From a virus: a DNA stretch of 64,000 nt. Shown piece by piece: positions 33,319-49,245 of the stretch. Below the pieces are notes generated by a model, which was not told where the DNA came from, made no database searches, and worked only from the letters and a program-made list of their open reading frames with translations. The position numbers were made by a program, and so were the translations under genes. The stretch lies in IMG/VR virus record IMGVR_UViG_3300046820_000903, positions 18,292 to 82,291 of that record; one strand, 5' to 3'. Within the stretch, counting starts at the first letter, position 1, and each line of letters opens with the position of its first letter.

Positions 33319-34270
33319 TGATTTGTCCTTGTATCCAGTCGTATGTTTTATTCAACCCATACTCTAAGTTCTCACCAGGTGCCCAGCCTATTGTGTCTCG
33401 AATAAGTTTGTTGTGACTGTTGCGCCCCATAACTCCCGTTGGCCCATCTACATTTCTAATAGACACATTCTTGTATGCCAACTTGGCAATCAATAGAGCT
33501 AAATCATTGATGCTGATCATACGCTCGCTACCCAAGTTTAAAGGAAACTCGCAGTCGCTGGCCATGATGCGATGTATGCCTTCTATACACTCATCAATGT
33601 ACAAGAAGCTACGAGTTTGATTGCCTGGCCCCCATATCTCTACTGTGTCGCTTTCTGTGCATTGTGCTACCTTGCGACACAAGGCCGCCGGCGCTTTTTC
33701 TTTGCCGTTATTCCAAGAACCCCAAGGACCAAAAATATTATGAAAGCGGGCAATTCTTGCTCTGATGCCATAATTGCGAGCAAAACTCATGTACAGACGC
33801 TCACTGAATAACTTCTCCCATCCATATTCGCTGTCTGGGTCAGCAGGATACGCACTTTCTTCGCTCAGTAACGGATTGGCTGGATCCAGTTGGTTATGGC
33901 TGGGATACATGCAGGCGCTACTACTGTAGAACACACGAGTAACACCCTTCTTGGTCATTTCATGTACAATATTCAAATTGATCATTGCTGAGTTATGTAC
34001 AATGTCAGCGTCATGTTCACCAGTGAAGATATAACCTGCGCCGCCCATGTCCGCGGCCAGTTGATATATTTCGTAAATGTCTTCTGTTATCAATTGCTGT
34101 ACATTGGTTTGCACACGAAGATCCATAATATGGAATTCATCTGCATCTGTAGCACTGAACTCTGGATGCTTTAGGTCAGCACCAATTACATAGTGACCTA
34201 GTCGTTTTAAATCAGTCACCAAGTGACTTCCAATGAAGCCACCGGCTCCGCATACTAATACTTTTTTCAT
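33311..34270 (-). CDS. NAD-dependent epimerase, GDP-mannose 3,5-epimerase-like
   Basis: GAGGFIG, LAADMGGAGYI, SSSACMYP, YGWEKL, RFHNIFGP and EKAPAALCRKV. Confidence 0.88.
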   Translation of the reverse strand: MKKVLVCGAGGFIGSHLVTDLKRLGHYVIGADLKHPEFSATDADEFHIMDLRVQTNVQQLITEDIYEIYQLAADMGGAGYIFTGEHDADIVHNSAMINLNIVHEMTKKGVTRVFYSSSACMYPSHNQLDPANPLLSEESAYPADPDSEYGWEKLFSERLYMSFARNYGIRARIARFHNIFGPWGSWNNGKEKAPAALCRKVAQCTESDTVEIWGPGNQTRSFLYIDECIEGIHRIMASDCEFPLNLGSERMISINDLALLIAKLAYKNVSIRNVDGPTGVMGRNSHNKLIRDTIGWAPGENLEYGLNKTYDWIQGQINE

Positions 34271-35775
34271 TCTGATGGTTCTATAATAGTTGTTGAAGGC
34301 TGATTGTAGTTGCCTGTTTTGGCTATTTCTTTAGCCAATTTACTTACCTCATACTCTCTTTGACACCTGTCAATGAAGGTAACCATTTCAGGGAACACTT
34401 CCTTGAAGTTGGTACCATTGCGCTTGTCATGCTCTTGTATGTACAAATAAAAATCATGCCGGGCAACAACGTTTTCTCGTTTGTTTGGATCCTCAGCCTT
34501 GATAACGTTCAGTAGTCTTGCCAAGTTATCTACTTCATGCTGATAAAAGCCATCCTGATAGTCCACGTATTCAAATTGGCCCACATTTCCTGTCATCCAG
34601 TTCACATGCTTTTCCAATGTTTCTATCAGGCCTGGGCCTGCAATCAATGCACTTAAATGCCTGGGATGACGCAGGTATGGGAAGTCAAGTGTGACGCCAC
34701 GAAGGCCACTGACCTTATGTTCGGGTGTTGGTGATCTACGTATTGCAAGAATATCTTTTAAGAAATTTCTAAATTGTGGAATACTCAATATATTGAATGT
34801 ACACATGATTGTCACATCCAACTCTGGATAGCGTAGAGCCAAGTTCCATAAGTTGTAGTACCACTTGTTATAGTCCAGGCCTACACGAACATATTCGGCT
34901 TGCTTGCCCCATGTATCACAAGACGTAAAGATCTTTAAATTTCTAACCTTGCCTTCACGTTTAATTTGTTGACATTTCTCAAAGAACTTGTCAATGATGT
35001 CTTGGTCAACACCCAGGTTAGTATTAATGGCCAGTTCTAAGTCAGGATTAGGATTTTCAATGATCCAGTCTAGTGTGCGGAATGTTTCTTTGCTTAGTAA
35101 GGGTTCGCCTCCAGTAATACGAAATACCTTTAATTCAGGATATAGTGTAGGCCACCACTTCCACCATGCGTCGATATAAGGGTTGACGTCCTTATTTGGA
35201 ATAGGCATGCGGTTTGCGCTTTCCAACCAGGTAATATCTTGTGTGACAGATTGACTGAGTTTAATAGCACCATGGCGCTTGGCAGACTGCATTAGTGTAC
35301 TGCTGATCTCTGGACTGCAATAACCACATCCAAAGTTACATACATTACTAAAACTCACTTCCACGTAGGCTGGAACAACATCTGCATCCCAGGGCAGTTT
35401 AGAACTGGATTCTAAGAATGGTTCTCCCCAGACTGTATCAGCACTTTTCTTTGTACGATCCGAAACGTATGTGCCATCATTACCTGGAGCATCTTCTACT
35501 CGCCAGCAGTAGTCGCACTCTTTGGGACGTTGACCTTCCAGCATTAGTTTACGAGAGTGCTTCTTGTGCCAGGTATTGTGCAAGGCACTGGGATTGACTA
35601 CAATTTCCTCTAAGGGAATTTTATGTGGACTGGGATGATGACACGAGTGTGTTTGCCCAGTGGCCAAATGAATGGTTACTTGTTGCCATTTGGCCACACA
35701 ATAAGTGGGGCTGACCTTGTCCAATTCTTTATGAATACGGATCAGTCTGTCGTTGTATTGTTCGGTAATTGCCAT
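34267..35775 (-). CDS. radical SAM protein with N-terminal twitch/SPASM-like domain
   Basis: CVAKW...SCHH...ECDYCW, then CNFGCGYC and ITGGEPL; late motif at 35781-35787. Confidence 0.85.
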   Translation of the reverse strand: MAITEQYNDRLIRIHKELDKVSPTYCVAKWQQVTIHLATGQTHSCHHPSPHKIPLEEIVVNPSALHNTWHKKHSRKLMLEGQRPKECDYCWRVEDAPGNDGTYVSDRTKKSADTVWGEPFLESSSKLPWDADVVPAYVEVSFSNVCNFGCGYCSPEISSTLMQSAKRHGAIKLSQSVTQDITWLESANRMPIPNKDVNPYIDAWWKWWPTLYPELKVFRITGGEPLLSKETFRTLDWIIENPNPDLELAINTNLGVDQDIIDKFFEKCQQIKREGKVRNLKIFTSCDTWGKQAEYVRVGLDYNKWYYNLWNLALRYPELDVTIMCTFNILSIPQFRNFLKDILAIRRSPTPEHKVSGLRGVTLDFPYLRHPRHLSALIAGPGLIETLEKHVNWMTGNVGQFEYVDYQDGFYQHEVDNLARLLNVIKAEDPNKRENVVARHDFYLYIQEHDKRNGTNFKEVFPEMVTFIDRCQREYEVSKLAKEIAKTGNYNQPSTTIIEPSE

Positions 35776-35794
35776 AATGTTATTTAGTATGTAG

Positions 35795-37096
35795 TTAATC
35801 CCATAAGGTTTCAATTGCTTCTACAACTTGAGTTGAGATTAGTTGATCCATAAATGCCTTGTTGGTCAGCAGATGTCTATTGTGCTGTATTGTTGGTTGG
35901 CACTGGAGTAATAGTGCGGCAAAGTCTGCTTCACTTAGTGCAATGATACGCTTTAATGTACGAGTCAATTCAATTCCACGTTCTACAGGATCAGTTATGG
36001 CGTCATATGATTCATCTATATACGGGCCAAAGGTTTTAAATCCATACTCACGTAGCTGTTGTAAGAATCCCGGAGCACCTGCCAACAAGAATATTTGTCC
36101 GTGTAGCATGGGTTTAAAAATCTTTTCTGTGGGGAATATGGCATTGGTAAAGAAAAGTGTTTCAGTAACAAGATTTACAGGGTATTCATCGTATAGTGTG
36201 TTATTTAAATCCAGTGCGTAGTTGATGTCAAAGCGATCTGTGTCTGCTATCAGCGGAAGTTTATTATACACTTGATTAAAACTGTTGTCAAGATTGTCAA
36301 TGTAACCATTGCAACGATCTTTAAGTAGTTGCCATTGATAAGGCAAGTCAAAGTCTTTGCCTTCCCAATTGATATCAGGTTCCGTAAAATGCTTGGGCAT
36401 ACTGACAGCACCATGTTCTACAAGACCAAAGTGTTCCAGTAGCGTAACAAAGAATATGCGGTGCGGATACGGGCGCCTATTTAAACTCATAAAACGACGA
36501 GTACCAGGTTTCCATTTGGCCATTGGGATACCTAGTTCTGGCTTGTCCCTGTAGCGTTGATTAAAGTTAATCCAGTTGGCAAAGAATCCATACCAAGCAC
36601 ACTTCATTAACACTGGCATCTTGTTTCTGCGGCACCATTGTAGATACACAGATTCTACGTTGCAAGTACTGCTGACATACAGCACACGATCTGCTAAGTT
36701 GTATTGTGCTATCCAATTGGTCAAGTCTGGGAATACTTCTTCCGTAAAGCCCTCTTCTGAGTAGTCAATTATAATGCGACAGTTGGCGTCATGCAATGCC
36801 AGTAGTCTGTTGGGATTGGAAGCAAACCACGAGTCAATCAGGGCCAGCTTCTGCTGATTCCATCCTCCGTGTAGACCAATGATTACTACACCACGTTCTG
36901 TGGCTTTATATTCATTAAATGTTTTAAATTCATTTTGGCTTTTAAAGTAATTGAAAATGATGTAGTCTAGTAGCGGATCAATTGTAAAGTTCTTAGAGCC
37001 TTCTTCGGGTATGTACTGTTTCAAGTAACGGTTCCATAAGTTCTCATCTGTAAAGTCTGGGGCAATGTAATCGCCATACCACGTGATAGTTGTCAT
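35795..37096 (-). CDS. putative glycosyltransferase-like protein, paralogue of 30669..31979
   Basis: FMSLNRRPYPHR, VNLVTET.F...PTEKIFKP and GFKTF...DESYD. Confidence 0.5.
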   Translation of the reverse strand: MTTITWYGDYIAPDFTDENLWNRYLKQYIPEEGSKNFTIDPLLDYIIFNYFKSQNEFKTFNEYKATERGVVIIGLHGGWNQQKLALIDSWFASNPNRLLALHDANCRIIIDYSEEGFTEEVFPDLTNWIAQYNLADRVLYVSSTCNVESVYLQWCRRNKMPVLMKCAWYGFFANWINFNQRYRDKPELGIPMAKWKPGTRRFMSLNRRPYPHRIFFVTLLEHFGLVEHGAVSMPKHFTEPDINWEGKDFDLPYQWQLLKDRCNGYIDNLDNSFNQVYNKLPLIADTDRFDINYALDLNNTLYDEYPVNLVTETLFFTNAIFPTEKIFKPMLHGQIFLLAGAPGFLQQLREYGFKTFGPYIDESYDAITDPVERGIELTRTLKRIIALSEADFAALLLQCQPTIQHNRHLLTNKAFMDQLISTQVVEAIETLWD

Positions 37097-37114
37097 GCTG
37101 ATACTTATAGTCAA

Positions 37115-37166
37115 AGAAAAACCCCAACGTGCCAGGATGATCAGTCCGCAGAGGTTGGGGCCGTGT
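37115..37166 (-). terminator. structured intrinsic terminator-like element after the endolysin gene
   Basis: CCCCAAC...GTTGGGG stem followed by TTTTTCTTT on the minus strand, enclosing an inner hairpin. Confidence 0.6.
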
Positions 37167-37170
37167 TAAC

Positions 37171-37806
37171 TTATTTGCTGTCAGTGTGAACTGATCGTAA
37201 TACTTCTAGTATATGATGAAAGTGTGCAGTACGATCAGCTAAGCCAATTGTGCCACCGTTGATCTTTTTAGTGACTGTTGTTACATCTTCCTTGTCAGCC
37301 CATGTATTCAACTTGCGAGTATCCCAGAACCAACCTGCACTTAGTACAGCCACTGGGTTCTTGGCAACTTGATCTGGGTCTGCTACTAAGTCTAAGCCTA
37401 GTGCTTTACCACATGATTTGTAGTTGTCTTTACCTGTCAATTGAATTACACCGCGCCCGCGAAACTTGTAGCCTTCGCCTGATGCCTCATTGCCATTGCC
37501 CATACGGTCGCAATAGGCTCTGTTTGCAATCTTTTCTGGCTTACGTGCGTATTCGTCTGCAACACCTGCAAACTTCTTAGGCCAAAAAGCCAACAATGCT
37601 TTGGCTTGATAGTTTAAGTTTTCTTCTACTGCATTAAAGTTACCACTTTCGTGGGCAGTTTGTGCAATAAACATGGCCTGTCTTTCGGGCGTATTGATTT
37701 CAAAGTGTTCAAACGTTTCGTTTAGTCCTTCTAAGAACATAGACAAACGTTCTGACTTTGCCTGGGGCAAACATGCTTTTAACACATCCAAAGTTAATTC
37801 TGACAT
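37171..37806 (-). CDS. glycoside hydrolase family 19 endolysin
   Basis: AMFIAQTAHESGNF...EENLNY, GYKFRGRGVIQLTGKDNY, SAGWFW and TKKINGGTIGLADR. Confidence 0.92.
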   Translation of the reverse strand: MSELTLDVLKACLPQAKSERLSMFLEGLNETFEHFEINTPERQAMFIAQTAHESGNFNAVEENLNYQAKALLAFWPKKFAGVADEYARKPEKIANRAYCDRMGNGNEASGEGYKFRGRGVIQLTGKDNYKSCGKALGLDLVADPDQVAKNPVAVLSAGWFWDTRKLNTWADKEDVTTVTKKINGGTIGLADRTAHFHHILEVLRSVHTDSK

Positions 37807-37816
37807 AAATGTCTCC

Positions 37817-39124
37817 TTATTGTATGTGCTTATTTAACAAATCAGAGGTTCCAGGTAGCGTTTTACGCCAGTCTGTGCCACGTGTAGTGTCTAAAAAGTC
37901 CATTAATTCTACGTAACGCTTAACTGCTAGTATGTTTTCAAACTTACTGTCAAAGTGATCAATTAACCATTTGTGAATAGTTCTACCTACAGGTGTGTCC
38001 CGTGTAGCGTATAACTCTGCTAATTCTTCCTTAGCTGAACGTGGTAAACTCATAACGCTGTGCATAGCAGGAGCATCAACAAACTTAACTTGGAATGGTA
38101 CGCCTTGGCTGTGGACCCAATCTTCTGTTTCAAACATTGTATGTGTAGTGCTCATTTGTGTACAGCTTGTTAGTCTATGTAACTTAACAACGCCTTCTTT
38201 TTCGTACTCTTTAACTCGCTTAACGTTGCGTTGGAATGTGTCCCACGAACTTGTACGAATTAACTCAAAAGGTTCGTAAGCCGCATCAATGCTGCCGGCC
38301 AATTCAACATGCTTGAAGTGACTCCAACGCTGTGCTAATTTGTCGTTAATAACTGACAAGTTAGTATCGTAGTCTAAGTATACTTCTTTAGCACGACCTG
38401 ACGCAATAATACGATCTAGCATTTCGTCGTGTGCAGGAACAATCATTGGTTCCCCGCCTGTGATGTAGATATGTTCTAGTGTAGGTAGTAGTTCATCAAA
38501 CTTAGACCACCATATGTCAGTTTCCCACCAACGTACTTCTTTTGGATTAAACAGCTTGCCGTGTTCGTTGCGTTCTAGTTTAACTCTAGGATGACCAAAG
38601 CCCCAAGGCACTTCTAAATTATTATTGTTAAATCCAACCCAGTCTTCATACCATTGGTTTGAGTAGCTGGGTCCACAGTGAACACACTTTTGGTTACATA
38701 AGTTTCCAAAGCGTATGTCTAGTGTTGTTGGATTCCATTTGACATAGCCATTTTCGTCCATGTCTGCATTCATATAAGTGGCAGGACTTACTATGTTTGT
38801 GCTTGGATTACGGCGCTCCATGCTTTGTCTACGACTAGCATTAATGTTCTTTGGATCGCCACCTGTTGCGCTTTCACGCTCACTACAGCATGAGCACAAG
38901 TCATGCCACCCGCCTTGTGTTTTTACATCATTAATGCGAACTGACCTATGCCACTTACCATTGAGCCCTTGATTAGGCGTGTGTGTCATAATGTTCATTA
39001 ACTTGCCGTTCTCATCAAGAGCCATGCCCTCGTTCATTGTTCGACTGTTAGTTAATGCACATATCCTATAATCGCCAAGAGGGGTTATCATCAACCCCTG
39101 CCACGGCAGTCTACAAAAAGCCAT
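37817..39124 (-). CDS. radical SAM protein with N-terminal twitch/SPASM-like domain
   Basis: FCRLPW, CSCC, LDIRFGNLCNQKCVHC and ITGGEP. Confidence 0.85.
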   Translation of the reverse strand: MAFCRLPWQGLMITPLGDYRICALTNSRTMNEGMALDENGKLMNIMTHTPNQGLNGKWHRSVRINDVKTQGGWHDLCSCCSERESATGGDPKNINASRRQSMERRNPSTNIVSPATYMNADMDENGYVKWNPTTLDIRFGNLCNQKCVHCGPSYSNQWYEDWVGFNNNNLEVPWGFGHPRVKLERNEHGKLFNPKEVRWWETDIWWSKFDELLPTLEHIYITGGEPMIVPAHDEMLDRIIASGRAKEVYLDYDTNLSVINDKLAQRWSHFKHVELAGSIDAAYEPFELIRTSSWDTFQRNVKRVKEYEKEGVVKLHRLTSCTQMSTTHTMFETEDWVHSQGVPFQVKFVDAPAMHSVMSLPRSAKEELAELYATRDTPVGRTIHKWLIDHFDSKFENILAVKRYVELMDFLDTTRGTDWRKTLPGTSDLLNKHIQ

Positions 39125-39127
39125 TGT

Positions 39128-41758
39128 TTACTTTCGGGCTAAAAAGCCCTGAGAGTTACGCTTGTATCCTTCTGGGATTAGCTTTACTTGTTTATCCAAC
39201 ATACAGAAGTATTCGTTTTCCTTTAATTGTGCAGATGCGTTTACAAGTGCTTGATCAAAGTTTTCATTCTTTTGTTTGTTGTGAATAGTCCACATTGTGG
39301 CATACGCACGTTCTGGATTGTCTTTATACTGCTTTAGTAATTTCTTTTCTAAGTCTTGATCAAAGCCAGGAGGTGCGCTTTCTTTAACTTTTTTGTTGTC
39401 CTTCTTTTCAGGACGCTTGCCACCAGTTTCTTTTTCTAGACGTTGTAGTAATTCTTCATCACTGCCGCCACCCAGCTTGTCAAATGCTTTTTTAGCGCCT
39501 GCTTTGATAGTGTCAATAATACCTTCATTTACAGCAGGAGCCATTGACCTACGGCTTTCAGCCACTTGTTTGATTACAGCTTTAGCGGCTTGTGCTTGTT
39601 CTGGAGGTAACGTAGCAATTTTAGACTGTGTATATTGTTCTACTTTGTCATCGCCGCCTAGTTTCTCAGAGGCCATGTCCCATAGTTTTTCTACACCCTT
39701 CATGCCTAACTTTGCCGCACTATAAGCGCCATAAGCGGCCATTGGGATACCAAGTAATGGGCCTAAGATACCAACAATAGCTGGAGCACCTGCTGCCGCA
39801 ACAACACCTAATCCAAGACCGCCGGCAAACTTAGCCAATGCAGGAGCGTCTTCTTCTACACCACGTTCGCCAGGAACGCTGCCACGAAAGTTCTTTTGCT
39901 TGTCTAGTACAGCTCGCATCTTGGTCATAATACGATCAAATGCACGAGCATCTGTTAAAGCACGTAAGAACTCTTCTTGACGGCCAGCTTTCATAAAAGA
40001 CTTATAACGTCCGCCAACAAAGCGAGCTTCTGGATATTCTAATGTAATTGGCTCACCACCAACCATGATTTCAGCATCTTGCCCTTGTTCAACGGCTTTT
40101 AAAATGCTTAGTATGTTCTTACGGCCTTGTTCCGATTCCATATTTGCTTCCTTAATTTTTGTTACGTTTTCAACCTTAGGATCTATGCCTTGTTCTTTTT
40201 GGCTTAGCAAATAGTCCCAAACACTTGTTGTCATCATTTCTGCTTTGGCAATTTTTTCTTGCGCCCATTCTGGCAAGTTATCGTTGTCGCCAATTGTGTC
40301 CATTAGGCCGTTGACCGCTCGAGCCATGGTACGCAGATTGCTTTTGGCCATACCTGCTTCGTCATCGTATTCAGGATTACTGGCTTCAGTCATACTTTCA
40401 CCCATGCCAGCTAGATTCTGTTCTACTTGTTTAACCCATCCTGACACATCACTGCTACCGATTTCTTCTACATCGCCTACAAAGTCAGCAACTTCATCCA
40501 CTGCCGCTCCTACCTTTTCTGGGCCGTGTTTGGCCAATAGGTCTGTGCGTTGCATTAGAATACGACGAATAATGGCCTGTGCTACTGGTGAGTCTTCATC
40601 ACCAGGATTGTCCATCATGCCTTCCGCCACACCTTGTTCTAAGCTTTCGACAATTACGCCTAAGCCTTTATTACCTGTGCCTTCTTTATTTGGACCAAGA
40701 ATTTGAGTGACTCTGACTTTTTTACCGTCATGGGGACCACCGTTTACTGTAATTATATTACCTACTTGTCTATTAGGCTTAAGGTTAAGTTTAATCTCTT
40801 GCGGTGCAGAATTTTGTGGTTGTGCTGATTGTTGCGGAGGCTGTTCTTGCTTTTGTGCAGGTTTGCTACCCTTCTTCCACTCGTATACCTCGTCATTCAA
40901 TGAAGCTCTATATGCTAATACAAATTGTTTTTCTGACCCCGACCTGTAAACAAAGTTGTCAATTTTAGATATTTTAACTGCTTCTTTGGTTGCATTGTCA
41001 ATTGCTTGTTTTGCATTATAGCAGTCAGTTAATTCACAATACTTTGTAACCAAATCATACACATTAGTTGCCATGTACTCCATTGGAGAAATACTATCTC
41101 CGGTAGAAATTTCTATGTCGGCGGACCTAAGTCTAATTTTTAATCCGCCAGTGGCATCTGTTAGCGCCTTACCAGCATAATTAGCCCAGTAACCTGGCCC
41201 TTTAGCTTGTGCCAATGTTGGTAAACCTGCGCCAGCTACAGCGGCAGCTCCGGCACCCAAGCCTTTTAAGAATCCTCTACGGTCGATTTCTTCTAAACTG
41301 CCTTCCGCCACACCTTCAGCAGGCTTGTCTTTCCAAGGCTTCCACATACCGTGCTTGTGATTATCTACAATGTATAGTGTATGTGTGACAGAGCCGTCTT
41401 CATTCTTAGATTTTTCTACATCAACAACTTTTTTAGCACCCCATTCGTTCTTGTCAAACATGTATTCTTCATGGTCAGCAGTTGCTTCGTCTTGTGCCTG
41501 GATAACGTATAACTTGTTATACTCTTTACCGTTAGGAGCAGATCCTTCTTGGTCAACATACTTTACAGCACGTTTCTGTGTGAATGCTTTGTGTTGAGCT
41601 TGACGTTGTTGACTAATAGCATCTTCGTCATCTGCGGCCTGTTGAGCAGGGCTAGGACGTGGCTCGCTGGGAACTCGAGCCTTAGGTTTAGCATTTAGCG
41701 CCGCATAATAATCGACGTCGCTGTCAAAGTTGCGTGGATCTACTTCGTTGATTTTCAT
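39128..41758 (-). CDS. mosaic multi-module protein, probable head-internal polyprotein
   Basis: MKINE N-terminus; modules separated by VAE/LEE/MTE/IKE/VEE/VNE/VKE/LKE; internal Tat-like signal and a hydrophobic segment. Confidence 0.6.
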   Translation of the reverse strand: MKINEVDPRNFDSDVDYYAALNAKPKARVPSEPRPSPAQQAADDEDAISQQRQAQHKAFTQKRAVKYVDQEGSAPNGKEYNKLYVIQAQDEATADHEEYMFDKNEWGAKKVVDVEKSKNEDGSVTHTLYIVDNHKHGMWKPWKDKPAEGVAEGSLEEIDRRGFLKGLGAGAAAVAGAGLPTLAQAKGPGYWANYAGKALTDATGGLKIRLRSADIEISTGDSISPMEYMATNVYDLVTKYCELTDCYNAKQAIDNATKEAVKISKIDNFVYRSGSEKQFVLAYRASLNDEVYEWKKGSKPAQKQEQPPQQSAQPQNSAPQEIKLNLKPNRQVGNIITVNGGPHDGKKVRVTQILGPNKEGTGNKGLGVIVESLEQGVAEGMMDNPGDEDSPVAQAIIRRILMQRTDLLAKHGPEKVGAAVDEVADFVGDVEEIGSSDVSGWVKQVEQNLAGMGESMTEASNPEYDDEAGMAKSNLRTMARAVNGLMDTIGDNDNLPEWAQEKIAKAEMMTTSVWDYLLSQKEQGIDPKVENVTKIKEANMESEQGRKNILSILKAVEQGQDAEIMVGGEPITLEYPEARFVGGRYKSFMKAGRQEEFLRALTDARAFDRIMTKMRAVLDKQKNFRGSVPGERGVEEDAPALAKFAGGLGLGVVAAAGAPAIVGILGPLLGIPMAAYGAYSAAKLGMKGVEKLWDMASEKLGGDDKVEQYTQSKIATLPPEQAQAAKAVIKQVAESRRSMAPAVNEGIIDTIKAGAKKAFDKLGGGSDEELLQRLEKETGGKRPEKKDNKKVKESAPPGFDQDLEKKLLKQYKDNPERAYATMWTIHNKQKNENFDQALVNASAQLKENEYFCMLDKQVKLIPEGYKRNSQGFLARK

Positions 41759-43872
41759 TTTCTTAATACACTTTTCATAAACTGTGTGGCCATTGCTTGC
41801 GCTTCGCTAACTGGCTTCATGTGAGTACTTAGCCCGATACTTTCTTGGGCTGGTTGCTTACTAATATCATGGAATCCAAAGCGGTCTACCATTAGGTATG
41901 TACTGCCCACTTTCATAATATCGCCAACGCTCATGCTGGTGTGTCCTGTGTTGCTTTGATTGATTAGATCACGTGCTTCTCCACGTGGACTCCAGTTTTC
42001 ACCTTGCATCATTGAAAACACTTTGTCTGGATTAGTTTCACGTAGTGTACCAATTTGTACATGTGTTTGTTCCAGTGTTTCTGGTGTGGGCATTTGACCC
42101 TTCTTGGTCAACCAGTTGGCACCCATCATCATGTCACGGCCTGCTTCATCGTTCCAGTACCAAACTTCTGTGCTGCCTTCTGGGTAAGCATCAGACAAGC
42201 TGGAGTATTGTGTAGCCGCAGGTCCTGCTTCTGTTTGTAATTCACGCTCGCCAAAGTAGTTTAACATTTGACGGAAGCCTTCGCCATCGTTTAGTGTTTG
42301 TTGCATTATGGCCTTGCTTTCTGGCTTTAACTGATCAAACTTGCTTAGGATCTTGTTGGCTGTTTTAGCACTGATAGTAATGCTACTACCGTCGGCCAAG
42401 GTCATTGGCTGTGGCTTATCGTAGTCAGCTTGACGACGAATCTGCATGATAATGTTCTTGTCTGCTGATGCTTGATCAGCTGGTGTAGCTTCATCTTCTT
42501 CAGCTTCGGTTACCGGTGCCATACCGCCTACTTCACGATCTAGTTTGTCAGCAATCCATTGTACTGGATCACCTTCACGTGCTTTGGCAACACCATAAGG
42601 CATTTCACCACTGTTTAAATAATAATCAAATAAGGCTTCGTAAAATTCTGGATTATCATCAATTTCGCCGCCAGCTTTAAATTGTTTAAATGAATCTGCA
42701 AATTGATCTAAAATACTTTCTAATTCCGGATCAACAATTAGGCCTTCATTTAAATCAATTCCTAAATCTTCAGCAAATAATTCACCAATTTCGTTGTCAT
42801 CATCTGCGTCACGTTGTGCTTTATAACTTAGACGATCATAGTAGTGAAAGTGTAGATCTGTTTCTAAAGCTTGACTTAGTTCGCCGCCGGCTTTAAAGTG
42901 CTCTACAGCTTCTTCATTGTTGGCAATGATTCTGGCCAACTGTGGATCCATACGGTATTCAGCTTCTTTAACTTCGATGCCAGCTTGACGTAAAACAGCA
43001 ATGTTGTCATCGCCCAATTCTTCTTCGTCATCTAATTCCAATTGACCGTTCTTGTTAAACGTTACATTGGTTGTACCGCCTGTTTTGTCAAACTGTGGCT
43101 TAGGCGCAGAACTGGTAGCGTTGCCCATGTTGGGAGTATTGCCGCCTGCACGACTTGGAATAGTGCCTGTAGTACCAATTGTACCAAAGCCTTCGCTTAC
43201 GCTTTCATTTTGTATGCCTGTTGTATGTGGGTGACGTACATAATAAGCTTGACCGCTTGCACTGATATAGTGTGGTAGTCGTTGTCCGTCACCGTCCATA
43301 AACTCTAAGTCACGTGCGCTAATGCGTGTAATACGGTTGTCCATGTCATAAAGAATTAGAAACTTGCCGTTTTGGCTCATACGTGCTTGGTCATATACCT
43401 TCATACTACGTCCGTCGGCTGGTAAACCATATTGCTGGCGAGTATCTTGTCTAACACGATCTGTTTCTGCACGACGAATTTCATTTTGACGAGCATTATA
43501 AATTCTACGCTGTGTTTCACGTTCTGCTTCACGTTGACGAACTAGTTCTTTATAGTTAGGGCTAAAAATATCTGCCATGTGACGACCAACGCTGTATTCT
43601 GTGCCAGGATGACGATTCTGTCCTGGCGTACCTGTATTCTGAGCATGTGCCCCGCTCATTGCAACACCAGCGGCCATTGCTGCCGGAATAATCTTTCTGG
43701 CAACATGTTGTAGGATGTCTTTACCAGCTTCGCTTAGGTCACCTTCAACAACAACAATGGTGTCAAACGGGTCTTTAAACTGCTTGACCTGCTGAAGCAC
43801 AATGCCTTCATGTAGACGACTGCTAATTTGCTTAACAACACGACCTTCACGGACTAATTGAATACGAATCAT
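41755..43872 (-). CDS. mosaic multi-module protein with C-terminal YodL-like domain
   Basis: Modules bounded by LHE/LSE/VSE/VKE/LNE/VTE/IQE-type sites; GHTSMSVGDI...YLMVDRFGF resembles YodL. Confidence 0.6.
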   Translation of the reverse strand: MIRIQLVREGRVVKQISSRLHEGIVLQQVKQFKDPFDTIVVVEGDLSEAGKDILQHVARKIIPAAMAAGVAMSGAHAQNTGTPGQNRHPGTEYSVGRHMADIFSPNYKELVRQREAERETQRRIYNARQNEIRRAETDRVRQDTRQQYGLPADGRSMKVYDQARMSQNGKFLILYDMDNRITRISARDLEFMDGDGQRLPHYISASGQAYYVRHPHTTGIQNESVSEGFGTIGTTGTIPSRAGGNTPNMGNATSSAPKPQFDKTGGTTNVTFNKNGQLELDDEEELGDDNIAVLRQAGIEVKEAEYRMDPQLARIIANNEEAVEHFKAGGELSQALETDLHFHYYDRLSYKAQRDADDDNEIGELFAEDLGIDLNEGLIVDPELESILDQFADSFKQFKAGGEIDDNPEFYEALFDYYLNSGEMPYGVAKAREGDPVQWIADKLDREVGGMAPVTEAEEDEATPADQASADKNIIMQIRRQADYDKPQPMTLADGSSITISAKTANKILSKFDQLKPESKAIMQQTLNDGEGFRQMLNYFGERELQTEAGPAATQYSSLSDAYPEGSTEVWYWNDEAGRDMMMGANWLTKKGQMPTPETLEQTHVQIGTLRETNPDKVFSMMQGENWSPRGEARDLINQSNTGHTSMSVGDIMKVGSTYLMVDRFGFHDISKQPAQESIGLSTHMKPVSEAQAMATQFMKSVLRK

Positions 43873-43873
43873 T

Positions 43874-46147
43874 TTATTTTACCTTTTTCCAATCTATGCT
43901 AGGCACAGTACTGTTTTTATTAACGAAATCTGGCTCTTTGCTTTTGCTACCTGTTAACTCTACAGGCTCCTTGCCTGTGATAGCTTTAACAGCGTCTCTG
44001 ATCATTTTATTTTCTTCATCTGTATAAGCATAGGCAAACGGACCAGCATTTGGTCCCAGCACTACTTTGTCACCGCCGCGGTTACCAGCCACGTGAATAG
44101 CATAACGATAAAAGCCATAACCAGGATCAGTGTTTAAATGGAACATTCCTTTAATAATACTGGCCTGCTCTGGATTCATTTTATCTTCTTTAAGATAATG
44201 GTGAATACCTTCTACAATACGTTGTGCTTGCTTTACACGATGCGTATACAATTCCAATGTCGTCATACGCTGTGAGCACTCACGCATGAAGTTAGACTCT
44301 TCATCTGTAATACCACGCGATCCACGACCACCTTTACTGCGAATACGCTTTAATTCATTGTATGCCGCAACAATAGTATTTAATGTATTTGTCAACTGCT
44401 TGATGTTCTCAGCGGCACGACGGAAGCTGCCACCGTGTTCTACTTTAAGGTCTGCGGCCATTGCGTCTGCTTCGCGGCGTGCTTTATCACGTAACCCGCC
44501 TAGAGTATAACGACCTGCGCCACCCAATACTAACACTTCTGTGTCTGTCATTGGTTTATCTCGATCCAAGCGATAGATAACATTTTTATGATCTAATACA
44601 TGTGCTTCTTTTGCAATCTTTGTATTACGGCGATTATTCATCCACTCTTTATATTGACCAAATTCATGTGGACTTAATGAAACATTATTTTTCACTTTCC
44701 AAACAATTCGCTGAATTGTTTCTGGAATATCTTTATCAATTTTACTGAAATAATCACGCATGGTAGTAAGTTTAGTTGGATCTTTTGCATCCGTATTACC
44801 TGCAAAATAATCACGCATGGTAGCTAAACTAGATTCAAATACACCTTGCCCAATGTAAGCAGGACCTGGAGTGTACTTTTGTCCCACTGCGGCACGTGCG
44901 GCTCTACGCCTGGCTCGACGACTACGACCACGTGTCATTGGATAAGCCACTACAGCAATGTCTGCACTTGTTGTGGCACCCGGAGACGCACCACCTTCGT
45001 CTTCCATGACATTGCCTTCTGCTAGACCATGCTTCTTCATCAAACTATAAATCTGACTGCCTGGCTTGACTGGTTGTCCAGATTTTAAAAACGCATCAAT
45101 CATGCCCAATTCTTGTTGCTTGCGTTGTGCAGACGTATCAACAGCAGGTGTTGCATTAGTGTTGCTATCGTCGTCACTGATGTCGTTGGGCTCATAATAC
45201 CAGCCCATGCCCGGATCATCACTGCCAGTTTTTGCTGGATTATCAAACTTGAAATAGGCAATTTGTGTTTTGCCCCAGTAGCCTTTGAATTCGCCAGTGG
45301 CATCATTCATGTCTTCTCGATCAAAATGATCTGCTTCAAATCGACCAAAGAAATCTATACTACGACGATATGACTCTGGCTTGGGATACTTGTAAGGATC
45401 TTCTCCATTGTCATCATCTCTGCCGTGCCCATTTGAAAATTCTTCTAAGTCTTTTTTGGCAAAGTTATCATTGTGGAAACTACCAACAATGTACCATTTT
45501 AAATCATGATCAACATCATTGTGTTCTACGCCTATTACGTTGACATTGTAACCTCGATCGTCAAACCAACTGTTGGCATAACCCACTAGATTTTGTTTGG
45601 CTTTTTCGCCACGTGTATCAATGTTAAATCCATCGTTGCTGACATCAAATTCTTCAAACCAATCATCACCAATGATATCAGCAAGCTCGTCATCTGAGTA
45701 CCAACGTCCTGAATCACCACTATCACCTGGTCCAGGTGCGAATTCTTTTAAAGTACTTTCGCTAACACCATCTCCGTGGCTGTCATCATGGTGTCCAGCA
45801 ACATGATGCTCGCCTGGCATCTCTACTTCATCGCGTTTGACATCAGTGGTTTCACTGGCACCAGCAGCCTTGGGCCACTCTAGGCCTTGTCCCACTTGAG
45901 CATCAGCATCGTAGTTGTGCGGCTCTTGTGCTTGTTGATGTCCTAAAAATATACCGCCTTTACCAACAGCCAAATCACCTTGCTGGCTTAGTCCATGCCC
46001 ACCACCTGGTGGTCGTGCGCCAACACGAGCTGTGCTGGCCAAGGTAGACGCCGCGCTTGGTGGTCCACTTGGGCCCGACGGACCACCTAGTGATGCTCCA
46101 CCCCCAGTAGCGGCCATCTCATTTAATGTTAATTCGCGAAGTTTCAT
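43874..46147 (-). CDS. mosaic multi-module protein, probable head-internal polyprotein
   Basis: MKLRELTLNE N-terminus; LKE/LEE/LAE/VME/VFE/IVE junctions; ATAAATA late motif upstream. Confidence 0.6.
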   Translation of the reverse strand: MKLRELTLNEMAATGGGASLGGPSGPSGPPSAASTLASTARVGARPPGGGHGLSQQGDLAVGKGGIFLGHQQAQEPHNYDADAQVGQGLEWPKAAGASETTDVKRDEVEMPGEHHVAGHHDDSHGDGVSESTLKEFAPGPGDSGDSGRWYSDDELADIIGDDWFEEFDVSNDGFNIDTRGEKAKQNLVGYANSWFDDRGYNVNVIGVEHNDVDHDLKWYIVGSFHNDNFAKKDLEEFSNGHGRDDDNGEDPYKYPKPESYRRSIDFFGRFEADHFDREDMNDATGEFKGYWGKTQIAYFKFDNPAKTGSDDPGMGWYYEPNDISDDDSNTNATPAVDTSAQRKQQELGMIDAFLKSGQPVKPGSQIYSLMKKHGLAEGNVMEDEGGASPGATTSADIAVVAYPMTRGRSRRARRRAARAAVGQKYTPGPAYIGQGVFESSLATMRDYFAGNTDAKDPTKLTTMRDYFSKIDKDIPETIQRIVWKVKNNVSLSPHEFGQYKEWMNNRRNTKIAKEAHVLDHKNVIYRLDRDKPMTDTEVLVLGGAGRYTLGGLRDKARREADAMAADLKVEHGGSFRRAAENIKQLTNTLNTIVAAYNELKRIRSKGGRGSRGITDEESNFMRECSQRMTTLELYTHRVKQAQRIVEGIHHYLKEDKMNPEQASIIKGMFHLNTDPGYGFYRYAIHVAGNRGGDKVVLGPNAGPFAYAYTDEENKMIRDAVKAITGKEPVELTGSKSKEPDFVNKNSTVPSIDWKKVK

Positions 46148-46152
46148 AGATA

Positions 46153-46215
46153 TATTTATTCGTTTGGTTCGGTATAACTGACTGTATTACTTATCATTAT
46201 CTTAGCCGTTAAATA
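46153..46215. promoter_or_regulatory. divergent late-promoter region
   Basis: ATAAATA on the minus strand (46153-46159) and TTAAATA on the plus strand (46209-46215) between divergent operons. Confidence 0.55.
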
Positions 46216-47724: not shown

Positions 47725-49245
47725 ATGGACGCGGTTATTGTTTCGGATTGTTCAAACGGCGAAAACAATACATTCTTATATCGTTATATTGGGCCATATA
47801 AAATTGCCCACGTGTGTCGCAGCCAAGGATACTCAGCACAGGTTATAGACTTTGTAATGAGCATGACGTACGACACACTACTAGGATACCTACGTAAGTT
47901 TGTTGACAAAGAAACCAAAATGGTAGCACTCAGTGCTACCTTTCTTTGTCAAGTGCCTGCTAAACAAAGCGATGGCTCCTGGGCTCGTGCCCCAGAGCAT
48001 GTAATACGAGCCTTACGTCAAATTAAAATAGAGTTCCCACAAGCAAGATACGTGCTAGGCGGCTATATGAGTGAACACTTGGACGGCTTTGGATTCATTG
48101 ACTGCCGTGTACTCAGCAATGCCGAAGCCATTACAGCCGAATTAATCAATTACCTTGCCGGTGTGGGCGAAGAACCACAGTATAAACTACAAAAGCCAAG
48201 TTGGAAGCGGGCCGCTGGACTTGAAAAGATGTATTATGCTCCTCGCAATGCCGTATACAATATAGAAACAGACAACTTCAGCTTCCATGAACAGGATTGT
48301 ATAGTAGAACAAGAAACATTACCACTGGAAGTAAGTCGTGGCTGTGTGTTTAAGTGTAAATTCTGTAATCATGAGAACCTAGGACGTCCCAAATTAGATT
48401 ATCTTCGTAGCATGGACTGTATCCGTGAGGAACTGGTCAACAACTATGAACGTTGGGGTGTTACAAACTACAATATACTATGCGACACGTTTAACGATAC
48501 TGAAATTAAACTACGCAGGTGGCATGAAATGGTCACAAGCTTGCCATTTAAAATTAAATTTGCCGCTTACATACGTGTGGACTTGATACATCGTTTCCCG
48601 GACATGGCACACTTGTTGCAAGAAGGCGGCTTACATGCGGCATTCCACGGACTTGAAAGCCTACATCCAGACGCAAGTCGCATTGTAGGTAAAGCCTGGA
48701 GCGGTCGACATGCTCGCGAATACATTCCTGAGTTGTATCACAATACGTGGGGTGGCCAAGTACATCAGCATCTTAACTTTATTGTGGGATTACCTGGCGA
48801 CAGCATAGAGTCCATGGAAAGCACAGCTGATTGGATAATACAGAATCAGCTACAAAGTGCCAGCTTTGGGGAGTTGTATCTGGTCAAGGGTAGCTTTAGA
48901 CATCTAAGCGAGTTTGAACGCAATGCTGAACAATACGGATACACCTTTGATGACACCAAAATACAGGATGCTCGTGTAGAAAGCGGCGGCGGTAGTTATA
49001 ATAAGTATTGGAAGCTGGACTATATTGACTTTGAAAAAGCCCGGCTTGTGGCACGTTCGCTGAACAGACGCATAGGTTCCCATGTTGGTCCAATGAATTG
49101 GACTATACTAAGTGCGTTATCAGTGGGCATGCCAGAGTCAAAAATAAATGTTAAACGTATACAGTTTAGTCTGGGTACATACGCCACACATAAATTGGCA
49201 TTTATTCAACGATATTTGACCAAATTAAATGGCATAAGTGCCTAA
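47725..49245 (+). CDS. radical SAM protein with B12-binding-like N-terminal domain
   Basis: LEVSRGCVFKCKFC, CDTFND, GLESL and FIVGLPGD; N-terminal YIGPYKIA...VIDF. Confidence 0.8.
   Translation: MDAVIVSDCSNGENNTFLYRYIGPYKIAHVCRSQGYSAQVIDFVMSMTYDTLLGYLRKFVDKETKMVALSATFLCQVPAKQSDGSWARAPEHVIRALRQIKIEFPQARYVLGGYMSEHLDGFGFIDCRVLSNAEAITAELINYLAGVGEEPQYKLQKPSWKRAAGLEKMYYAPRNAVYNIETDNFSFHEQDCIVEQETLPLEVSRGCVFKCKFCNHENLGRPKLDYLRSMDCIREELVNNYERWGVTNYNILCDTFNDTEIKLRRWHEMVTSLPFKIKFAAYIRVDLIHRFPDMAHLLQEGGLHAAFHGLESLHPDASRIVGKAWSGRHAREYIPELYHNTWGGQVHQHLNFIVGLPGDSIESMESTADWIIQNQLQSASFGELYLVKGSFRHLSEFERNAEQYGYTFDDTKIQDARVESGGGSYNKYWKLDYIDFEKARLVARSLNRRIGSHVGPMNWTILSALSVGMPESKINVKRIQFSLGTYATHKLAFIQRYLTKLNGISA

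What the first reader, a model, noticed from the sequence alone, without database searches (positions are those of the whole stretch)
41204..41296. Hidden internal twin-arginine (Tat) signal peptide exposed by a predicted cleavage
Seen: about 157 residues into the 876-aa protein, LEE is directly followed by IDRRGFLKGLGAGAAAVAGAGLPTLAQA. This matches the Tat consensus (S/T/D)RRxFLK, a Gly/Ala h-region and an AxA cleavage site. Established: Tat signals normally function at the N-terminus. Inference: cleavage after LEE creates a new N-terminal Tat signal, so an injected folded module could be exported to the periplasm at once, for example for superinfection exclusion or envelope remodelling.
Basis: partly seen in the sequence, partly recalled or inferred. 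Interest (0 to 1): 0.85.

Follow-up and report, generated by a model that had tools for sequence, protein, structure and literature searches.

The report
Buried Tat export signal in phage polyprotein
An uncultured giant freshwater phage carries a complete bacterial Tat export signal 158 residues inside a modular protein, directly behind a head-protease-type cut site, and hundreds of related phage proteins keep this layout, which suggests (untested) that cutting exposes an export address.

Summary
Residues 155-185 of the 876-aa ORF 39128-41758(-) read LEE-IDRRGFLKGLGAGAAAVAGAGLPTLAQA. Pfam TAT_signal scores 21.7 bits against a cut-off of 22.7.

It is a portable cassette, not a chance match. A profile of it finds 439 protein clusters. 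In 164 of 168 distinct copies the RR motif follows a [LIVM]-x-E site, at protein positions 8 to 1076. The copies precede at least 68 unrelated cargo groups. TonB/TolA C-terminal domains, which are periplasmic, are the commonest named cargo (16 of 124).

An internal start codon is excluded. Three things favour release by a T4-type head protease:
- N-termini that look like capsid-targeting leaders;
- a very acidic stretch before RR;
- modules that occur on either side of the signal.

This protease is found in related records, but never in a record that also holds the cassette. Cutting, packaging, injection and Tat dependence are all untested. Internal uncut Tat signals are already known (FecR), so exposure is not strictly required.

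The scan found the same layout before on other DNA.

The parts
39128..41758 (-). 876-aa mosaic (polyprotein-like) gene, built of at least 8 modules that recur separately in other phage proteins
   Evidence: ORF. Coverage map of 120 homologues: residues 185-295 are covered by 10-13 hits, residues about 395-445 by 109.
41744..41758 (-). N-terminus MKINE, which fits the capsid-targeting-like leader pattern of the family (M-[KR]-[IL]-x-[ED]-hydrophobic)
   Evidence: The pattern is met by 100 of 153 cassette proteins but by only 13 of 463 ORFs of the related record G006.
41288..41323 (-). Acidic junction PAEGVAEGSLEE (aa 146-157) with two Glu sites, VAE|G and LEE|I
   Evidence: The same QGVAEGSL-x-E junction precedes many other modules that have no signal. 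Its codons are conserved at synonymous sites.
41204..41287 (-). Tat-type signal I158-A185: IDRRGFLK, then the h-region GLGAGAAAVAGAGLPTL, then the c-region AQA
   Evidence: Pfam PF10518, 21.7 bits. Family statistics.
40868..41203 (-). Cargo domain aa 186-297, a predicted four-helix bundle of unknown function that is always found behind the signal
   Evidence: AlphaFold model, pLDDT 78-89 over most of this range. No fold match at E<=1e-3. 10 of 10 homologues are signal-linked. Downstream of the signal in 8 of 8 proteins.
40643..40867 (-). Gln/Pro-rich spacer and a small KOW-like module (aa 298-372) that travels with the cargo in the stand-alone form P0121
   Evidence: Alignment A2. Pfam KOW in P0121.
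40613..40642 (-). Second junction LEQGVAEGMM (aa 373-382), which closes the signal-cargo unit
   Evidence: The 14-nt stretch that codes GVAEG is identical at 40620-40633 and 41301-41314.
39131..40612 (-). Further modules (aa 383-876), including the widely shared module aa 383-460 and a Gly/Ala-rich hydrophobic stretch at aa 636-690
   Evidence: The module aa 383-460 lies upstream of the signal in 8 other proteins and downstream in 11.

Best explanation
The segment is a genuine Tat-type export signal that forms one portable unit with the domain behind it. The unit sits inside a mosaic head-cargo protein of an uncultured freshwater jumbo phage of the T4 superfamily.

Proposed mechanism:
1. The protein is drawn into the prohead by its capsid-targeting-like N-terminus (inferred).
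2. The gp21-type prohead protease cuts at the acidic junctions, VAE|G and/or LEE|I (inferred).
3. This removes a strongly acidic stretch and leaves IDRRGFLK... as a new, positively charged N-terminus (shown as arithmetic on the sequence).
4. The released unit is ejected with the DNA (inferred by analogy with T4 internal proteins).
5. The new host's Tat system exports it, and signal peptidase trims it at AQA|K (inferred).
6. It then acts in the periplasm. In relatives the cargo is often a TonB/TolA C-terminal domain. The cargo of this window is a helical bundle of unknown function.
For: Signal identity:
- Pfam TAT_signal matches the window's copy (21.7 bits) and 106 of 124 relatives at E<=1e-3.
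- The uncharged run after RRGFLK has a median of 16 aa and a mean Kyte-Doolittle value of 1.1. That is weak and short, as in Tat signals.
- A strict AxA site is present in 109 of 168 copies.

Portability:
- The cassette lies at positions 8-1076 of its proteins.
- It precedes 68 cargo clusters among 157 copies.

Periplasmic cargo:
- TonB_2 occurs in 16 of 124 proteins.
- In 7 of 7 examined it lies between the signal and the next junction.

Glu-site link:
- [LIVM]-x-E directly before [IVLMA][DSNTG]RR in 155 of 168 copies, and shifted by one residue in 9 more.
- The link holds in 10 of 10 homologues found by cargo alone.

Acid mask:
- The 12 aa before RR have a mean net charge of -4.26.
- After a cut at E(-3) the n-region is +2 or +3 in 155 of 155 copies.
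- Tat n-regions are described as positively charged (PMC13673990 passages).

Units behave independently:
- Module aa 383-460 lies upstream of the signal in 8 proteins and downstream in 11.
- 59 of 105 upstream regions share a module with the far-downstream region of another protein.

Head-cargo context:
- The leader-like N-terminal pattern is met by 100 of 153 cassette proteins against 13 of 463 G006 ORFs.
- The window's DNA polymerase is 56-59% identical to that of five related records.
- Two of those records, G003 and G005, hold Peptidase_S77, gp23 and the T4 portal. They also hold mosaic proteins with QGVAE junctions and leader-like N-termini.
- The G005 protease is 51-59% identical to those of Phosso, Atu_ph07 and Vibrio phage 2.275.O. 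These are also the window's nearest cultured relatives by polymerase.
- G006, which carries two cassettes, is syntenic with G003 on both sides of G003's head module. The module falls in the piece missing from G006.

T4 precedent (PMC9026906 passages): gp21 cuts after L/I-x-E, a 10-residue leader suffices for packaging, and leader fusions are delivered into the infected cell.
Against: - No record holds both the cassette and the protease. PF03420 was found in 0 of 1 (G000), 0 of 5 and 0 of 18 cassette-bearing records. The cassette profile was found in 0 of 5 records G001-G005. All of these records are fragments.
- No proteomic, expression or export data exist.
- Internal Tat signals can work uncut.
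- 66 of 168 copies lie within 60 residues of the N-terminus. There they could act as ordinary signals in the producing cell and compete with packaging.
- None of the 168 proteins has two complete signals. A fixed membrane topology would predict this; free units would not.
- In 12 of 168 copies the residue at -3 is Asp. In T4, Asp at that position blocks processing.
- A cut at LEE| leaves only two residues before RR.
- Cys is not enriched in the cargo: 0.56% against 0.64% upstream and 0.89% far downstream.
- 0 of 5 phage records encode TatC, so everything depends on an unknown host.
- The profile used for the survey included the junction columns, which biases the 164 of 168 count. One search is the unbiased control.
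Confidence: 0.45

Rival explanations
1. Uncut internal Tat signal-anchor, like FecR (class V Tat substrates). The protein is made in the infected cell. The modules before the signal stay in the cytoplasm, Tat threads the part behind it into the periplasm, and no phage protease or virion delivery is involved.
For: Internal uncleaved Tat signals are documented for FecR and Streptomyces Rieske proteins (PMC13673990 passages). There is exactly one complete signal per protein in 168 of 168. In L043 a cytoplasmic-type nucleotidyltransferase-like module lies upstream of the signal. No cleavage has been shown.
Against: The same modules occur on either side of the signal in different proteins: aa 383-460 is upstream in 8 and downstream in 11, and there are 287 upstream/far-downstream pairs. 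This would put one module in two compartments. The stretch before RR is strongly acidic (mean -4.26). An AxA cut site is kept in 109 of 168 copies. The h-region is short and weak for a stable anchor. This model leaves the leader-like N-termini unexplained.
Confidence: 0.2
2. A polyprotein that is cut and exported in the producing cell only. A phage or host protease releases the units in the cytoplasm, or small fragments leave the maturing head. The Tat unit then goes to the periplasm of the same cell late in infection, for example for lysis control or envelope changes, and is never injected.
For: The same junction, charge and cargo data as the best explanation. The short forms with RR at positions 8-20 (36 of 168) look like ordinary precursors. 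The T4 review notes that core fragments are released from the head on cleavage (passages).
Against: In T4 the Glu-specific protease acts inside the prohead, and products of this size stay inside and are ejected (by analogy only). The leader-like N-termini suggest packaging. No other protease was identified in the window: Pfam found none in the 8 proteins scanned.
Confidence: 0.2
3. Not an export signal. The Gly/Ala stretch is a membrane-insertion or pore-forming piece of an ejection protein, and the likeness to Tat signals is convergent.
For: The same protein has a second Gly/Ala-rich hydrophobic stretch at aa 636-690. Ejection proteins of other phages enter membranes (abstract of PMC8402733, search listing).
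Against: RRGFLKG is almost invariant. Pfam TAT_signal hits 106 of 124 proteins. Signal-peptidase-type sites follow the stretch in 109 of 168 copies. TonB/TolA periplasmic domains follow it. In L043 a Met precedes SRRGFLRG, as in a captured bacterial precursor.
Confidence: 0.07
4. An internal translation start just before RR makes a separate protein with an ordinary N-terminal Tat signal.
For: The residue two places before RR is always I, V, L, M or A. Some codons of I, V, L and M are start codons in table 11.
Against: In 24 distinct DNA copies that codon is ATA 9, ATC 4, ATT 3, GTA 6, GTT 1 and ATG 1. GTG and TTG never occur, and 7 copies use codons that are not starts. The nearest Shine-Dalgarno-like GGAAGG lies 13 nt upstream, as read from the codons.
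Confidence: 0.02

Closest known systems
Phage T4 internal proteins (IPI, IPII, IPIII) and Alt: capsid-targeting leader, gp21 processing, ejection with the DNA
   Same: A short N-terminal leader ends in hydrophobic-x-Glu, cut sites are of the L/I-x-E type, the cargo is hypervariable, and the phage is of the T4 superfamily with Peptidase_S77 in related records.
   Different: The T4 proteins are single units that act in the cytoplasm. No export signal is described for them in the passages read. Here many units are strung on one chain, and one unit carries a Tat signal. Packaging and cutting are not shown here.
Class IV/V Tat substrates (Streptomyces Rieske proteins, FecR) with internal Tat signals
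   Same: A twin-arginine signal lies far from the N-terminus, with other domains in front of it.
   Different: Those signals are uncleaved anchors in a fixed domain order. Here the order of neighbouring modules is free, an AxA site follows the signal, and an acidic protease-type junction precedes it.
Polyvalent proteins of phages and conjugative elements (Iyer et al. 2017, PMC5512222)
   Same: Long chains of unrelated modules, predicted to be packaged, injected and in some cases cut into pieces (passages).
   Different: That paper's text holds no occurrence of 'signal peptide', 'periplasm' or 'twin-arginine'. Its processing is by zincin-like peptidase domains. Pfam finds none of its hallmark domains in the window's protein.
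Polyproteins of eukaryotic RNA viruses with internal signal sequences (recalled, not checked here)
   Same: Internal signals direct parts of one chain across a membrane, and proteases separate the parts.
   Different: Those signals act co-translationally through Sec61 in the cell that makes the protein. Here the pathway would be Tat, post-translational, and possibly in the next host.

Membership tests
Tat (twin-arginine) signal peptide, Pfam PF10518 | Consensus S/T-R-R-x-F-L-K at the border of the n- and h-regions | tested here: met
   D-R-R-G-F-L-K at aa 159-165. RRGFL is invariant in 34 aligned copies.
Tat (twin-arginine) signal peptide, Pfam PF10518 | Score at or above Pfam's gathering cut-off (22.7 bits) | tested here: inconclusive
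   The window's copy scores 21.7 bits. 8 of 20 relatives reach 22.7-24.9 bits. 106 of 124 match at E<=1e-3.
Tat (twin-arginine) signal peptide, Pfam PF10518 | Weakly hydrophobic h-region followed by a signal-peptidase site (AxA) | tested here: met
   The window has GLGAGAAAVAGAGLPTL then AQA|K. In the family the uncharged run has a median of 16 aa and a mean KD of 1.1. Strict AxA is present in 109 of 168 copies.
Tat (twin-arginine) signal peptide, Pfam PF10518 | N-terminal position with a positively charged n-region | tested here: not met
   RR lies at aa 160-161 of 876. In the family the 12 aa before RR have a mean net charge of -4.26. The feature would be met only after a cut at the Glu site, which gives +2 or +3 in 155 of 155 copies.
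Tat (twin-arginine) signal peptide, Pfam PF10518 | Export that depends on TatABC and on the RR pair | not testable with these tools
   The host is unknown. TatC is found in 0 of 5 related phage records.
T4-type head cargo (capsid-targeting leader, gp21 processing) | N-terminal leader of about 10 residues ending in hydrophobic-x-Glu | tested here: met
   The window protein starts MKINE and the neighbouring 757-aa protein starts MKLRELTLNE. The pattern is met by 100 of 153 cassette proteins against 13 of 463 G006 ORFs. This is a motif match only; function was not tested.
T4-type head cargo (capsid-targeting leader, gp21 processing) | A gp21-type protease (Peptidase_S77) in the same genome | tested here: inconclusive
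   Absent from G000, which is about 25% complete. Present in the related records G003 and G005. Synteny places it in the piece missing from G006. It is present in the nearest cultured relatives.
T4-type head cargo (capsid-targeting leader, gp21 processing) | Cleavage after L/I-x-E, presence in virions, and ejection into the host | not testable with these tools
   This needs virion proteomics of a cultured member. The cassette has no match in the phage collection.
Class V Tat substrates (FecR-like) | Fixed order: cytoplasmic domain, uncleaved signal-anchor, periplasmic domain | tested here: not met
   Module aa 383-460 lies upstream of the signal in 8 proteins and downstream in 11. AxA sites follow the signal in 109 of 168 copies.
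Polyvalent proteins (Iyer et al. 2017) | One polypeptide with many domains of disparate activity, encoded by a phage or conjugative element | tested here: inconclusive
   The many-module mosaic build is shown. Apart from TAT_signal, no Pfam domain is recognised in the window's protein. Relatives carry a cytidylyltransferase-like domain, M48, TonB_2 and DUF6321.

The most novel reading that the evidence does not exclude
A two-step address code. A capsid-targeting leader takes the polyprotein into the prohead. The head-maturation protease then strips an acidic mask and exposes a Tat signal. The unit stays in the cytoplasm of the producing cell, travels in the virion, is injected with the DNA, and is immediately re-exported by the new host's Tat system into the periplasm. 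This would give jumbo phages pre-made periplasmic effectors, such as TonB/TolA decoys, that act before any phage gene is expressed.
Probability: 0.35. Interest if true: 0.9.

Novelty: new variant of a known kind. Interest (0 to 1): 0.72.

Why it matters
Proteins injected by phages are known to act in the cytoplasm. If this reading is true, it adds a route by which virion cargo reaches the periplasm using the host's own Tat machinery, with capsid maturation as the switch that arms the signal. It would explain how very large, slow phages could change the envelope, block TonB- or Tol-dependent entry of rivals, or counter periplasmic defences within seconds of infection. It would also offer a natural design for delivering proteins to the periplasm with engineered phages. 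The cassette is short, highly conserved and easy to test with reporter fusions.

Tried and rejected
- Internal start codon: rejected on codon usage.
- Chance match: rejected.
- Cys enrichment as a sign of a periplasmic destination: not seen.
- Fold of the window's cargo: four helices, with no match at E<=1e-3 in PDB or BFVD.
- PHROGs: nothing for the three mosaic proteins.
- Cultured phages: no match to the whole protein, to 12 kb of DNA, or to the 40-aa cassette.
- A record holding both the cassette and Peptidase_S77: sought in 24 cassette-bearing records, none found. Conversely, the cassette profile found nothing in G001-G005.
- G006, labelled 99% complete, at first looked like a counter-example: no S77, gp23, portal or phmmer hit. 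Synteny showed that its contig ends just where G003's head module lies, so the absence says nothing.
- Phage-encoded TatC: none in 5 records.
- Tail sheath family PF04984: no hit in 5 records, uninformative.
- A T4-like late-promoter word 5 nt before the ATG of the first mosaic gene occurs once. 24 of 100 shuffles do as well, so no claim is made.
- Reads: contigs of three RNA libraries lie on parts of the three genes at 99% or more. The tool warns that this does not show transcription. The parts without cover prove nothing. The freshwater habitat rests on three DNA runs that hold 80-89% of the words, from two studies, one of which may be the source.
- Literature: searches found no paper describing a protease-exposed Tat signal in phage cargo. 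This covers only the held library. Supplements were not consulted.
- Papers: passages were read from PMC3012670, PMC9026906, PMC13673990, PMC7029224 and PMC5512222. All other papers were seen only in search listings.
Full report
THE OBSERVATION

The ORF at 39128-41758 on the minus strand encodes 876 residues. Residues 155-185 read LEE IDRRGFLKGLGAGAAAVAGAGLPTLAQA, and they map exactly to the coordinates given, 41204-41296. Pfam's TAT_signal model matches aa 157-175 with E 1.9e-4 and 21.7 bits, one bit under its curated cut-off of 22.7. The description is therefore correct in every detail.

IT IS A CONSERVED, PORTABLE CASSETTE

A homologue search gave 678 proteins, all from metagenomes. Each matches only parts of the query, so the protein is a mosaic of at least eight modules. 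Ten of the 120 listed hits carry the same RRGFLK segment, nine of them by the strict pattern, at positions 72 to 640.

A search restricted to aa 146-300 among shorter proteins returned 27 proteins, and all 27 carry the cassette. I built a 40-column profile from 34 copies and ran it against 1.84 billion representatives. It found 439 at E<=1e-3 and 90 at E<=1e-10. Of the 150 listed, 149 have the RRxF motif.

Over all proteins in hand there are 168 distinct copies:
- RR lies at position 20 or earlier in 36, at 21-60 in 30, at 61-200 in 54 and beyond 200 in 48. The maximum is 1076.
- [LIVM]-x-E stands directly before [IVLMA][DSNTG]RR in 155 copies, and one residue further back in 9.
- The residue at -3 is Glu in 155 and Asp in 12.

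The profile contained the junction columns, so this count is biased. The unbiased control is a search with the cargo domain alone: all 10 proteins it finds, down to 27% identity, have the Glu site and the signal in front of the cargo.

THE PHAGE

- G000 is an IMG/VR virus record of 82,291 bases, estimated 25% complete.
- The window holds a T4-type family B polymerase, a GH19 endolysin and several radical SAM genes.
- The polymerase is 56-59% identical to those of five large related records.
- Among cultured phages it is 42-48% identical to Sinorhizobium phage Phosso, Agrobacterium phage Atu_ph07, Vibrio phage 2.275.O and the 350-kb Escherichia jumbo phages.
- Two related records, G003 and G005, hold Peptidase_S77 (87-88 bits), gp23 (315-320 bits) and the T4 portal.
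- The G005 protease is 51-59% identical to those of Phosso, Atu_ph07 and Vibrio phage 2.275.O.
- The DNA occurs in freshwater metagenomes: three runs from two studies hold 80-89% of the sampled words, and one study may be the source.

THE PROTEASE LINK IS INDIRECT

No record holds both the cassette and the protease. PF03420 was absent from G000, from G006-G010 and from 18 further cassette-bearing records. The cassette profile found nothing in G001-G005.

G006 is 342,865 bases, is labelled 99% complete and has two cassettes. It lacked S77, gp23, the portal and any phmmer hit to G003's head proteins. Synteny explains this. G003 genes at 50-68 kb match G006 genes from 27 kb down to 2.5 kb, running off the start of the contig. 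A G003 gene at 92-97 kb matches G006 at 325-331 kb, near the other end. G003's portal, protease and capsid genes at 70-76 kb therefore fall in the piece that G006 lacks. G003 and G005, which have the protease, also have mosaic proteins with QGVAE junctions and leader-like N-termini.

ANATOMY

The junction before the signal, (Q)GVAEGSL-x-E, is generic. It precedes many other modules that have no signal. Stand-alone proteins end with GVAE plus two to four residues.

The 12 residues before RR have a mean net charge of -4.26. After a cut at Glu(-3) the n-region would be +2 or +3 in 155 of 155 copies. A recent review describes Tat n-regions as positively charged (PMC13673990, passages).

The uncharged run after RRGFLK has a median of 16 residues and a mean hydropathy of 1.1. 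That is short and weak for a membrane anchor. A strict AxA site follows in 109 of 168 copies.

N-termini fit a pattern M-[KRILN]-[ILVTAFKM]-x-[DEQ]-[ILFVY] in 100 of 153 cassette proteins, against 13 of 463 ORFs of G006. The window's proteins start MKINE and MKLRELTLNE.

In 24 distinct DNA copies the codon two places before RR is ATA 9, ATC 4, ATT 3, GTA 6, GTT 1 and ATG 1. An internal start therefore does not explain the layout. The junction and the RRGFLKG codons are conserved even at synonymous sites.

CARGO

The first 100 residues behind the signal fall into 68 clusters among 157 copies.
- Of 124 cassette proteins up to 560 aa (out of 169), Pfam finds TAT_signal in 106, TonB_2 in 16, TolA in 12, DUF6321 in 11, TonB_C in 11 and Peptidase_M48 in 2.
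- In 7 of 7 proteins examined, the TonB_2 domain lies between the signal and the next junction. These are periplasmic domains of Gram-negative bacteria.
- The window's own cargo (aa 186-297) is predicted as four helices, with pLDDT 78-89 over most of the range and a weak stretch at aa 209-221. It has no fold match.
- Cys is not enriched in the cargo.

CUT OR UNCUT

Internal Tat signals that work without cutting are known: Streptomyces Rieske proteins, and FecR, where a folded cytoplasmic domain precedes the signal. This is the main rival.

Against the rival: the module at aa 383-460 lies upstream of the signal in 8 proteins and downstream in 11. Also, 59 of 105 upstream regions share a module with the far-downstream region of another protein. 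Under a fixed topology one module would then sit in two compartments.

For the rival: none of the 168 proteins has two complete signals, and 66 copies lie near the N-terminus.

T4 gives the precedent for the cut-and-inject reading (PMC9026906, passages; PMC3012670, passages). gp21 cuts after L/I-x-E, ten leader residues suffice for packaging, and leader fusions are delivered into the infected cell. An Asp at the cut position blocks processing, which bears on the 12 copies with Asp.

LITERATURE

The polyvalent-protein paper (PMC5512222) holds no occurrence of 'signal peptide', 'periplasm' or 'twin-arginine'. Six searches of the held library found no description of a protease-exposed Tat signal in phage cargo.

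The scan itself has reported the same layout on other DNA: eight follow-up notes were listed, and 30 findings hold the search words. I read these after forming my view, and they are not independent evidence.

VERDICT

That the segment is a Tat export signal for the unit behind it is well supported by sequence. That a Glu-specific head protease exposes it is plausible and supported by several indirect lines. That the unit is injected and then exported is an attractive inference with no direct support. I file it as a new variant of known kinds (T4-type head cargo, polyvalent proteins, Tat substrates) and rate interest at 0.72.

Noticed in passing
window 43639-43737 (-), aa 46-78 of the 705-aa ORF 41755-43872: A second buried signal-like segment directly after a Glu site: LSE, then AGKDILQHVARK, a hydrophobic stretch, and AHA-Q. 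It looks Sec-type rather than Tat-type. The layout is kept at the same position in 72 of 72 homologues.
   Followed up: partly
window 40620-40633 and 41301-41314 (-): The 14 nt that code GVAEG are identical at both ends of the signal-cargo cassette (0.01 expected by chance). The same codons recur at synonymous sites in 24 loci of other phages. One contig of an RNA library (X7, depth 2) joins 40617 to 41299 and skips exactly the 681-base cassette. This is a possible natural variant without the cassette, resting on a single weak record.
   Followed up: partly
P0121, P0122, P0123, P0125 (alignment A2): Stand-alone relatives of the cassette unit end with ...QGVAE plus 2-4 residues. The junction therefore also marks the end of genes, as if modules were exchanged at this word.
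   Followed up: no
G006 (L084-L101) against G003 (L102-L104): A record rated 99% complete lacks the whole head module, because its ends lie on either side of it. The completeness estimates for this lineage are too high.
   Followed up: yes
window 39689-39853 (-), aa 636-690: A second Gly/Ala-rich hydrophobic stretch, long enough for two membrane helices, lies in the same protein. It is shared by 57-72 of 120 homologues.
   Followed up: no
L043 2482-4167 (+): A relative with a cytidylyltransferase-like first module has GVAE-D-M-S-RRGFLRG... with a different h-region and ARA|D. It looks like a bacterial Tat precursor captured together with its initiator Met.
   Followed up: partly
window 46145-46159 (-): ATAAATA lies 5 nt before the ATG of the first of the three mosaic genes. 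It resembles a T4 late-promoter word, but it is a single occurrence and not above chance (24 of 100 shuffles).
   Followed up: yes
alignment A3 (124 cassette proteins): Single members match Pfam ATLF (a zinc-metallopeptidase domain), eCIS_core and Gly-zipper_Omp. Two match Peptidase_M48. So some cargo may be enzymes.
   Followed up: no
window 34267-39124 and 47725-49245: Three radical SAM genes and a GH19 endolysin without any signal flank the mosaic genes.
   Followed up: no
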